Below, piece after piece: positions 16,121-16,786 of a DNA stretch of 64,000 nt (position 1 is the stretch's first letter; the number at the start of each line of letters is the position of its first letter). This DNA is from Octopus vulgaris (lineage: Eukaryota). The stretch covers positions 49,414,001 to 49,478,000 of the forward strand of contig OX597826.1 in assembly GCA_951406725.2 (NCBI GenBank). The letters are read 5' to 3'. A program made the translations under genes and the position numbers. The notes beneath the pieces were generated by a model. The model was not told the origin of the DNA and searched no databases. It saw nothing but the letters and a program-made list of their open reading frames with translations.

Positions 16121-16786
16121 ATCAATATAAGGGTAGCAAAAAAATTCAAGAAAAATTCAAAAAAAATTTTCTGCAACCAGCGGTCAAGTGAGAAAGTAGA
16201 AATAGTCACAGACTATATAATATATTCAACAATAGTATTAAGGAATGACCCTGACAGGCCGTTCAACTCACTTGAAAGAGCAGCTAAACTCAAACCGCAA
16301 AATAGCAGTAATTCTGAAACTAAAGGAGAAATAAAAACATTTATCCCCTTCAACTTTGTACCATGCATAGTTTCCACATTTTTACGCAATCGAATTAAAT
16401 TAAATTAAATTAAATCCGTTTACGATTGGCTTGTCTCATCAGCAAAGTAGCCAAAGAAAAGGAAAATATATACACACGAGGCAGCACCATCGAAGCCTCG
16501 AGTTCATATATCCTAAATTTTCGAAATCCACCGTAACCGCGCCATCTACTCAGCAGCAAATATAAACTGCTGATACAATTTCAGAATTAGTAAAAAAAAT
16601 CATGAATTAATCAATATAAGGGTAGCGCTGCTGAGTAGATGGCGCGGTTACGGTGGATTTCAAAAATTTAGGATATATAAACTCGAGGCTTCAATGGTGC
16701 TGCCTCGTGTGTATATATTTTCCTTTTCTTTGGCTACTTTGCTGATGAGACAAGCCAATCGTAAACGGATTTAATTTAATTTAATT
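16121..16786. mobile_element. 489-bp-unit HHR element: one full unit on - plus an inverted partial copy on +, in (TA)n
   Basis: 17-bp direct repeat ATCAATATAAGGGTAGC at 16121 and 16610; inverted arms 16398-16557 / 16627-16786. Confidence 0.85.
16353..16448 (-). ncRNA. Type I hammerhead ribozyme with elongated stem II
   Basis: ACUUUG-CUGAUGA-GACA...(53 nt incl. CAAUCG/CGAUUG)...UGUG-GAAA-CUAUGCAUG-GUA-CAAAGU; stem I 6 bp; near-palindromic stem III; G-G mismatch at the base of stem II. Confidence 0.75.

What the first reader, a model, noticed from the sequence alone, without database searches (positions are those of the whole stretch)
16121..16786. Second HHR unit (489 nt) with terminal redundancy and inversion
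Seen: a minus-sense segment 16626->16121 equal to one 489-nt unit plus 17 nt of redundancy (ATCAATATAAGGGTAGC twice). It is followed by an inverted 160-bp copy that stops in the AT-rich stem II loop at (TA)n. The HHR (16353-16448) has different stems from the 538-nt unit (ACUUUG/CAAAGU, stem III ACUAUGCAUGGU, GUA site) but the same topology. Inference: the terminal redundancy is what copying past the junction of a circular or tandem template would leave.
Basis: partly seen in the sequence, partly recalled or inferred. Interest (0 to 1): 0.78.

Follow-up and report, generated by a model that had tools for sequence, protein, structure and literature searches.

The report
Hammerhead retrozyme with Penelope-type insertion scar
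This is a real, many-copy, non-coding animal repeat of about 490 bases carrying a self-cutting 'hammerhead' RNA motif (a retrozyme, a known kind of parasite RNA); this copy was pasted into a TA microsatellite as two back-to-back pieces, the pattern that Penelope-like retrotransposons leave, but whether it was copied from an RNA circle is still open.

Summary
In detail: a 17-nt direct repeat 489 nt apart, a 160-nt inverted copy (3 mismatches), (TA)n on both sides and a type I hammerhead on the minus strand (0 of 3000 shuffles). Public contigs (4 of 24 listed runs laid) show a high-copy, diverged, head-to-tail family with unit lengths of about 477-489 nt and copy ends at several places. So the redundancy is read-through of a multimeric or circular template; which of the two is not shown. 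The head-to-head inversion in (TA)n is the usual insertion pattern of Penelope-like elements (PLEs); the unrelated 538-nt element in the window is built the same way. The ribozyme is unusual. Rfam misses it, G10.1 faces G11.1 (not restored to G-C in laid contigs), loop II has 53 nt, and a 6-bp loop II/stem I pseudoknot is likely. Verdict: a new member of the metazoan non-LTR retrozymes, probably PLE-mobilised. Two post hoc leads: three of four TA-side ends follow a rare YCUUA motif, and one arm of each element is about 1.0 unit long, as a circle could give. The scan noted similar PLE-type tandem insertions and retrozymes on other DNA. Cleavage and circles are untested.

The parts
15972..16122 (.). 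Left (TA)n flank, the insertion target; its last AT overlaps the first two bases of the element
16121..16626 (-). Main arm, 506 nt = 1.035 units; inferred first cDNA, starting at the left (TA)n
   Evidence: the cDNA reading is inference
16121..16609 (-). One repeat unit (489 nt, about 34% GC, longest ATG-started frame 51 codons on the circularised sense strand)
16121..16137 (-). First copy of the 17-nt terminal redundancy; contains YCUUA (CUUA at 16131-16128)
16610..16626 (-). Second copy of the 17-nt redundancy (read-through into the next unit)
   Evidence: head-to-tail joints
16138..16168 (.). 11-nt internal duplication (2.8 copies), shorter in other copies of the family
   Evidence: gaps and joints
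16239..16243 (-). Second and only other YCUUA of the unit; one X4 contig joins foreign TA-rich DNA 10 nt downstream of it (16229)
16353..16448 (-). Type I hammerhead: stem I 6 bp, core 16442-16436, G10.1/G11.1 mismatch (16435/16375) plus 3 bp stem II, 53-nt loop II, stem-loop III ACUAUGCAUGGU (self-complementary), GUA site, cut 16359|16358
   Evidence: not detected by Rfam
16449..16454 (-). UUGGCU in the bulge of the extended stem I: 5' strand of the predicted pseudoknot
16426..16431 (-). AGCCAA, first six bases of loop II: 3' strand of the predicted pseudoknot
16393..16415 (-). A/U-only pentamer repeat in the loop II hairpin; the inverted arm starts here (16398)
16626..16627 (.). Head-to-head (5'-to-5') inversion junction, blunt, no microhomology, at the centre of a 6-bp palindrome AGCGCT
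16627..16786 (+). Inverted arm, 160 nt = copy of 16398-16557; inferred second cDNA, starting at the right (TA)n; holds only the 5' half of the hammerhead
16786..16847 (.). Right (TA)n flank

Best explanation
A copy of a non-coding, hammerhead-bearing tandem repeat (a metazoan non-LTR retrozyme) that was retro-inserted in trans by the reverse transcriptase/endonuclease of a Penelope-like element. Shown: the unit, its hammerhead motif, lack of a kept reading frame, high copy number, head-to-tail joints in genomic DNA, and the two-arm structure in (TA)n. Inferred: the endonuclease opened both strands of a (TA)n tract, and each 3' end primed cDNA inside the RNA at an AU-rich site. The left end primed just 3' of ACCCUUAU and ran 506 nt, through the uncut ribozyme and 17 nt into the next lap. 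The right end primed in the AU repeat of loop II and ran 160 nt. The two cDNAs were then joined end to end, giving the head-to-head inversion. The template had the cut site intact and no end at the unit junction: a ligated circle or an uncleaved multimer. I lean slightly to the circle (about 0.42 against 0.38 within the 0.8). The ribozyme most likely uses a loop II/stem I pseudoknot as its tertiary contact and may cut weakly or as a dimer.
For: Repeat anatomy. Motif not chance: 0 of 3000 shuffles. Family: 373, 171, 9 and 166 contigs laid in X3, X2, X4, X7, spread from 99+ to under 90% identity. Head-to-tail joints at 16590-16598 to 16121 (X2, X3) and 16626 to 16151 (X2, X4). Only 1-3% of what was laid in X3, X2 and X7 runs on into unlike sequence, so the unit mostly stands alone. 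One more inversion joint is in X2 (all). A diverged X4 contig keeps GAAA, the GUA site and stem I, with stem-loop III ACCUUGCAGGGU (one pair changed on one side, one on both sides, loop UGCA kept) and U at 11.1 (read by eye). The 538-nt element at 45336-47030 has the same build (535-nt inverted arm, 1156-nt direct arm, both ending in (TA)n, 3-nt microhomology), with no local homology to this unit (score 27, reached by 43 of 200 shuffles). Literature: an inverted 5'-truncated copy and (TA)n targets are typical of PLEs (PMC8557442); head-to-head is the commonest arrangement and pLTR sequences suffice in trans (PMC3846280); a purified PLE protein cuts and extends both strands, prefers AT-rich DNA, starts inside the RNA and does not need ribozyme cleavage (PMC11167929); retrozymes derive from PLE pLTRs (bioRxiv 10.64898/2026.07.22.740005). 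Pseudoknot: exact 6-bp complement at the start of loop II, about 3e-4 by composition (0.01 if any position is allowed), both strands unpaired at no cost in the hammerhead fold.
Against: No autonomous PLE partner was identified (no genome held). This copy's own inversion joint (16626/16557) is not among the joints listed for the four runs. Rfam finds no hammerhead. G10.1-C11.1 is described as highly conserved (PMC4209133) and is G/G here; no C>G change is tallied at 16375 in any of the four runs, so it is not restored in laid contigs, though these are a small part of the family there. Without the pseudoknot the hammerhead fold lies 6-7.5 kcal/mol above the minimum and stems I and II have near-zero pairing probability. 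The two start sites are 277 nt apart, not the 30-40-nt 'tail' of characterised PLEs. No target-site duplication can be read in (TA)n. Only 1 of 9 predicted Xenopus retrozymes cleaved in vitro, so the motif alone does not promise activity.
Confidence: 0.8

Rival explanations
1. Sub-case A of the best explanation: the template was a covalently closed monomer circle. The reverse transcriptase tends to stall when it meets its own RNA-DNA hybrid after one lap, which leaves a few bases of redundancy or shortfall.
For: One arm of each element is almost exactly one unit: 506/489 and 535/538; the chance that at least 2 of 4 arms end within 17 nt of a whole unit is about 0.03, post hoc. None of the 4 arms ends at a cut site, and they cross an intact cut site four times. 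The two tandem units of the 538-nt element are identical (0 differences in 538 nt). The circularised unit folds better than 25 of 25 shuffles (z -3.5). Retrozyme RNAs of coral, mussel and axolotl accumulate as circles (PMC7229834).
Against: Only two elements, and the statistic was chosen after looking. The other two arms are 0.33 and 2.15 units. Every other feature is also given by a tandem transcript. No raw RNA reads were laid.
Confidence: 0.42
2. Sub-case B of the best explanation: the template was a linear read-through transcript of a genomic tandem array in which the ribozymes had not cut; the 17 nt are a chance truncation point.
For: Tandem joints exist in DNA runs. The G/G mismatch and long loop II could slow cleavage. 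Unprocessed RNA was the dominant substrate of the one PLE studied in vitro (PMC11167929). Multimeric retrozyme RNAs are seen in axolotl (PMC7229834).
Against: Gives no reason for two near-unit-length arms. Needs two consecutive uncut ribozymes in the 538-nt element, whose stems I and II fold with probability 0.96 or more.
Confidence: 0.38
3. It is the pseudo-LTR (3' end) of an autonomous Penelope-like element, seen here as a 5'-truncated fragment, not a free-standing retrozyme.
For: PLE pLTRs carry hammerheads and most insertions are 5'-truncated with inverted copies (PMC4209133; PMC8557442).
Against: Upstream of the unit comes the unit's own end, in the window and in contigs; 1-3% of laid DNA contigs run on into unlike sequence, and the 23 best-supported of 147 loose ends show no dominant foreign junction. 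No kept reading frame; no Pfam hit for the 95-codon antisense frame. The motif has 6-bp stem I and a full stem III, unlike the minimal pLTR hammerheads, which also occur in this window.
Confidence: 0.08
4. DNA-level origin: a satellite fragment was captured or rearranged in a fragile (TA)n tract by break repair, fold-back synthesis or an extrachromosomal DNA circle, with no RNA step.
For: Long (TA)n tracts are breakage-prone (recalled); three further fold-back palindromes flanked by TA lie in the window.
Against: No microhomology that could prime fold-back at 16626/16627. Both hammerhead elements have the same polarity relative to the ribozyme strand (5'-to-5'), as PLEs do. The conserved, covarying RNA motif points to an RNA stage.
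Confidence: 0.09
5. The inversion is an assembly or chimeric-read artefact.
For: The exact joint is not among those listed in four other runs.
Against: The arms differ at 3 of 160 positions, all C/T and two in CpG, as ageing DNA would. A second element has the same build, and another inversion joint is present in X2.
Confidence: 0.02

Closest known systems
Metazoan non-LTR retrozymes (PMC7229834; bioRxiv 10.64898/2026.07.22.740005)
   Same: Non-coding head-to-tail repeat, GC under 50%, one type I hammerhead per unit, many dispersed copies, monomer-sized insertions; size within the 51-972 bp of the 2026 preprint; a mismatch at the base of helix II is known (U/U in axolotl HHR_Amex2).
   Different: Longer than the 150-450 bp of the 2020 paper; 53-nt loop II, G/G at 10.1/11.1 and a predicted pseudoknot; head-to-head insertion in (TA)n, which neither main text describes; cleavage, expression and circles not shown.
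pDo500 satellite of Dolichopoda cave crickets (PMC2837043)
   Same: 463-505-bp hammerhead-bearing tandem repeat, same size class; changes at G10.1/C11.1 occur; the hammerhead is often not the lowest-energy fold.
   Different: pDo500 has a compact 49-nt hammerhead shown to cleave; no sequence comparison was made here.
Endonuclease-positive Penelope-like elements (Penelope/Poseidon, Neptune, Nematis, Naiad; PMC8557442, PMC3846280, PMC11167929)
   Same: Partial tandem plus inverted 5'-truncated copy, head-to-head, small palindrome at the junction, (TA)n target, internal start of reverse transcription.
   Different: No RT-endonuclease frame; start sites 277 nt apart instead of a 30-40-nt tail; mobilising clade unknown (Naiads target (TA)n but lack canonical hammerheads; Neptune has both features by the paper's account).
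Pseudoknot-stabilised hammerheads (PMC3088659; the crystallised PK hammerhead of PMC11300833)
   Same: A Watson-Crick pseudoknot between loop II and the stem I region as tertiary contact, predicted in about 40% of hammerheads and in all three types.
   Different: Here it is only predicted and no covariation was available; the crystallised form has a one-pair G10.1-C11.1 stem and an extra helix IV, a different architecture.

Membership tests
Metazoan non-LTR retrozyme | Head-to-tail repeat unit of a few hundred bp | tested here: met
   1.035 units in the window; head-to-tail joints in DNA runs X2, X3, units about 477-489 nt
Metazoan non-LTR retrozyme | One type I hammerhead motif per unit | tested here: met
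   Complete core, stems I and III; 0 of 3000 shuffles; covarying stem III in one X4 contig. Caveat: no Rfam match, G/G at the base of stem II
Metazoan non-LTR retrozyme | No protein coded, GC under 50% | tested here: met
   GC 34%; longest ATG frames 51 and 29 codons; frame-breaking indels common in the family; no Pfam hit
Metazoan non-LTR retrozyme | Many copies in the genome | tested here: met
   373, 171 and 166 contigs of 99+ to under 90% identity in three runs; exact copy number not measurable
Metazoan non-LTR retrozyme | Self-cleavage of the transcript | not testable with these tools
   Needs an in vitro assay
Metazoan non-LTR retrozyme | Expressed as linear and circular monomers | not testable with these tools
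   Only contigs were available; they cannot show strand, ends or circularity
Metazoan non-LTR retrozyme | No LTR, primer-binding site or polypurine tract | not tested
   No long direct terminal repeat is seen; no tRNA-primer search was run
Canonical type I hammerhead | G10.1-C11.1 pair | tested here: not met
   G/G in the window; no C>G change tallied at 16375 in the four runs; G/U likely in one diverged contig; the main subfamily was poorly covered there
Canonical type I hammerhead | [quoted passage not shown] | tested here: inconclusive
   6-bp pseudoknot predicted; no covariation data
Autonomous Penelope-like element | RT plus GIY-YIG reading frame between pLTRs | tested here: not met
   None in or next to the element; 1-3% of laid DNA contigs run on into unlike sequence
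PLE-type insertion | Inverted 5'-truncated copy joined head-to-head | tested here: met
   16627-16786 against 16398-16557; same in the 538-nt element
PLE-type insertion | AT-rich or (TA)n target | tested here: met
   (TA)n on both sides
PLE-type insertion | 30-40-bp tail between two adjacent start sites | tested here: not met
   Start sites 16121 and 16398 are 277 nt apart; the tail is described as optional
PLE-type insertion | Homology of the unit to the pLTR of an autonomous PLE in the same genome | not testable with these tools
   No genome held

The most novel reading that the evidence does not exclude
This genome keeps a readable record of a Penelope-like reverse transcriptase copying covalently closed retrozyme RNA circles. 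It starts at a short YCUUA-plus-AU signal shared by unrelated retrozyme families, primes from both ends of a cut (TA)n tract, and often stalls after exactly one lap. The circle is made by a pseudoknotted type I hammerhead that works without the G10.1-C11.1 pair.
Probability: 0.2. Interest if true: 0.7.

Novelty: new member of a known kind. Interest (0 to 1): 0.42.

Why it matters
Which enzyme moves animal retrozymes, and whether it copies circles or tandem transcripts, is still a proposal in the papers read: the PLE link rests on co-occurrence and pLTR homology. Two unrelated retrozymes in one 64-kb window that both carry the PLE insertion scar add a different line of evidence. They also point to a simple test on any good assembly: arm lengths modulo unit length, and start sites against YCUUA. 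The ribozyme would be a natural hammerhead variant with a G/G pair at a highly conserved position. As a kind of element it is known, so the gain is mechanistic, not a new class.

Tried and rejected
No whole genome is held, so copies could not be collected. Exact-pattern scans found 0 loci: viral contigs, metagenome contigs (28, 39), prokaryote genomes (29, 41). The run search listed no RNA holder on record; X4 is an RNA guess, so its 382-nt contig across the unit junction was not taken as evidence of expression or of a circle. The drop in contig depth over 16359-16545 first looked like copies ending at the ribozyme cut site or starting near 16550. Rejected as evidence: the tool masks 16383-16422, the best-supported loose ends at 16353 run on through the cut site after a 1-nt insertion, and a diverged subfamily (about 84-87% identity) thins the cover left of 16548. 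Contig depth was not used as a copy number. Rfam over the whole window listed only microsatellite-driven and fold-back matches among the 150 shown of 384; the local scan gave five matches, none a ribozyme and all below their gathering scores. The 95-codon open frame on the plus strand has no Pfam hit and is broken by common indels. Homology between the 489- and 538-nt units: local alignment not above shuffles; a global score beat 200 of 200 shuffles, but it is negative and not controlled for shared AT/GC zoning, so not relied on. Microhomology-primed fold-back at the junction: no matching bases. L1-type twin priming in the strict sense: rejected, since the arms overlap by duplication and the end of arm 1 is 261 nt from the start of arm 2. 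A likeness of CCCUUA to a reverse telomeric repeat was considered (recalled) and left: one mismatch, internal target. Earlier scan notes by sequence and place were empty. PMC8490949 (passages) added nothing.

Full report
1. Observation. The 17-mer stands at 16121-16137 and 16610-16626, 489 apart; about 1e-4 such pairs are expected by composition. The arms 16398-16557 and 16627-16786 are 160 nt long and differ at 16491, 16505 and 16522, each C against T, two in CpG. (TA)n flanks both sides. The window is microsatellite-rich animal-type DNA; it looks cephalopod-like from recalled repeat content, which I did not test. No genome is held for it.

2. The ribozyme. On the minus strand: stem I ACUUUG/CAAAGU, core CUGAUGA, GAAA, stem-loop III ACUAUGCAUGGU, GUA site, cut 16359|16358. 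My descriptor, which tolerates a mismatch at the base of stem II, hit 0 of 3000 shuffles and, in 64 kb, only this motif and the three motifs of the 538-nt element. Against it: Rfam gives no hammerhead match up to E=10 (the 538-nt motif scores 28.6 bits). Position 10.1/11.1 is G/G where G-C is highly conserved (PMC4209133). The forced hammerhead fold is 6-7.5 kcal/mol above the minimum. The competing helix, though, is UUGGCU (16454-16449, in the bulge of the extended stem I) paired with AGCCAA (16431-16426, the first bases of loop II). Both strands are free in the hammerhead fold at no cost, and their duplex is worth about -6.8 kcal/mol before loop penalties. It is therefore most likely the pseudoknot type of tertiary contact that PMC3088659 predicts for about 40% of hammerheads, which the folding program cannot form. 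Chance by composition is about 3e-4 for that register and 0.01 if any place in the loop is allowed. Stem-loop III is self-complementary (-15.3 kcal/mol as a dimer), which fits the dimeric mode described for tandem metazoan hammerheads. Activity is untested.

3. The family. Twenty of 24 listed runs, from 9 studies, hold part of the stretch. I laid four (X3, X2, X4, X7; three organism labels), all contigs, at 82% likeness. They gave 373, 171, 9 and 166 contigs from 99+ to under 90% identity, so this is a many-copy, diverged family; the number cannot be read from contig depth. Three of the four listed joints go back by 470-477 bases at the unit junction, in DNA runs X2 and X3 and in X4. With the bases between, the units are about 477-488 nt; the window's 489 includes an 11-nt duplication. 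The fourth joint changes strand (16157/16239, X2); its orientation is not given. The window's own joint 16626/16557 is not listed. In X3, X2 and X7 only 1-3% of what was laid runs on into unlike sequence, and none of the 23 shown of 147 loose ends is a dominant foreign junction, so the unit is not mostly the end of a longer element. Single X4 contigs leave the family near 16229 (into TA-rich DNA) and near 16345. Forty of 54 variant rows were shown; the tallies by kind allow only one C>G site per DNA run, and that is 16543, so G-C is not restored at 16375 in laid contigs. Cover there is a small part of the family's, so the main subfamily is not settled. One diverged X4 contig, read by eye from its loose end, keeps GAAA, GUA and stem I, has stem-loop III ACCUUGCAGGGU (pairs kept through a one-sided and a two-sided change) and U at 11.1.

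4. The insertion. Read as cDNA, each arm starts at a (TA)n flank with 1-2 bases of overlap, and the two meet blunt at their far ends, 5'-to-5' in RNA sense, at the centre of AGCGCT. The 538-nt element at 45336-47030 is built the same way: a 535-nt inverted arm, an 1156-nt direct arm, 3 bases of microhomology, identical tandem units and two differences in the inverted arm. The two units show no local homology. This is the published pattern of Penelope-like elements: an adjacent inverted 5'-truncated copy and (TA)n targets (PMC8557442), head-to-head most often, with junction palindromes and action in trans on pLTR-flanked DNA (PMC3846280). A purified PLE protein cuts and extends both strands of AT-rich DNA, starts inside the RNA and inserts uncleaved RNA (PMC11167929). 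A 2026 preprint argues from co-occurrence and pLTR homology that animal retrozymes are non-autonomous PLE derivatives.

5. Mechanism. Shown: non-coding unit, hammerhead motif, tandem family, two-arm insertion in (TA)n. Inferred: priming from both ends of a cut (TA)n tract by a PLE enzyme in trans, then end joining. The 506-nt arm crosses the cut site intact and passes the unit junction, so its template was a circle or an uncleaved multimer, not a cleaved monomer. The 17 nt are read-through and need no special role. Tandem joints in DNA do not decide between the two templates, since copying round a circle also makes tandems.

6. Two leads, both post hoc and from two elements. (a) CUUA occurs only twice in each unit, always as YCUUA. 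Three of the four TA-side ends lie 5-14 nt downstream of one. Among A/T-only candidate ends, 5 of 118 and 14 of 147 lie 6-13 nt after CUUA, about 1e-3 for three of four by hand calculation, to be discounted because the motif was picked after looking. The X4 end at 16229 lies 10 nt after the unit's second site. The fourth end (16398) has no such motif. (b) The arms that start after ACCCUUAU are 1.035 and 0.994 units long; the other two are 0.33 and 2.15. At least 2 of 4 within 17 nt of a whole unit has a chance of about 0.03. A stall after one lap round a circle would give this; so could luck.

7. Comparison and novelty. It works like, and on every sequence test made is, a metazoan non-LTR retrozyme; cleavage and circles are untested. 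The size matches the pDo500 satellite (463-505 bp, PMC2837043). It is not an autonomous PLE. The words 'inverted', 'microsatellite' and 'pseudoknot' do not occur in the main text of PMC7229834 and occur only in other senses, or not at all, in the 2026 preprint. Searches listed no paper whose title or abstract describes this insertion anatomy for retrozymes. The library lacks most subscription papers, and the supplements of both papers could not be read (preprint files closed), so related figures may exist there. Earlier notes of this scan describe PLE-type tandem insertions in TA microsatellites and retrozymes in other genomes; they are unchecked and were not used as support.

8. Papers seen. 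bioRxiv 10.64898/2026.07.22.740005: parts 1-3 of 5 (abstract to discussion) and passages. PMC7229834: parts 2-4 of 6 (results, discussion) and a word count. PMC11167929: parts 1-2 of 4 (main text). PMC4209133: part 1 of 4 and passages. PMC11300833: part 1 of 6 and one passage. PMC8557442, PMC3846280, PMC2837043, PMC3088659, PMC8490949: passages only. Hammerhead numbering and the L1 twin-priming model are recalled.

9. Verdict. Real, a new member of a known kind, with an unusual ribozyme and a testable hint about the template. Interest 0.42.

Noticed in passing
window 45336-47030: The 538-nt hammerhead unit: 535-nt inverted arm plus 1156-nt direct arm between (TA)n, 3-nt microhomology at the junction, tandem units identical; Rfam Hammerhead_1 28.6 bits; very stable fold (z -7.7 as a circle, 25 shuffles). 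Same architecture as the finding, no local homology.
   Followed up: partly
window 14682-14915, 15357-15588, 62590-62899: Three copies of a repeat with a minimal PLE-type hammerhead (core at 14865 minus, 15397 plus, 62708 plus; C(C/U)GACGA, short palindromic stem III) that share one 3' end, GGATTAAC, next to TA-rich microsatellite: probably pLTR ends of a Penelope-like family.
   Followed up: partly
window 45012-45269, 25899-26070, 28181-28388: Three near-perfect fold-back palindromes (259, 173 and 214 nt) with TA runs at their outer ends; may be short head-to-head PLE-type insertions.
   Followed up: no
window 12823-13791 (minus): 322-codon open frame with a reverse transcriptase domain (Pfam RVT_1, E 4.7e-14); LINE-like by recalled motifs, not PLE-like.
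   Followed up: partly
window 10246-12109: Minisatellite of 84 copies of a 22-nt unit.
   Followed up: no
window about 44160-44560: Decayed stretch that reads SPQSTDINIIENLW in one frame, like the recalled Tc1/mariner transposase motif; not tested.
   Followed up: no
window 17136-17384, 17984-18287, 32707-33003, 19619-19775, 20105-20261: Further dispersed repeats; loose hammerhead-like hits at 17264 and 18179 under a relaxed pattern failed the stricter descriptor.
   Followed up: partly
window 3162-3635, 4721-5168, 7032-7583, 29983-30403, 53208-53694, 56764-57212: An abundant repeat of about 450 bp, 72-93% identical between copies, in both orientations; SINE-like, not examined.
   Followed up: no
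window 16549-16573: An 8-bp hairpin of the RNA; the inverted arm ends at its loop. The inverted arm of the 538-nt element also ends at the edge of a hairpin.
   Followed up: no
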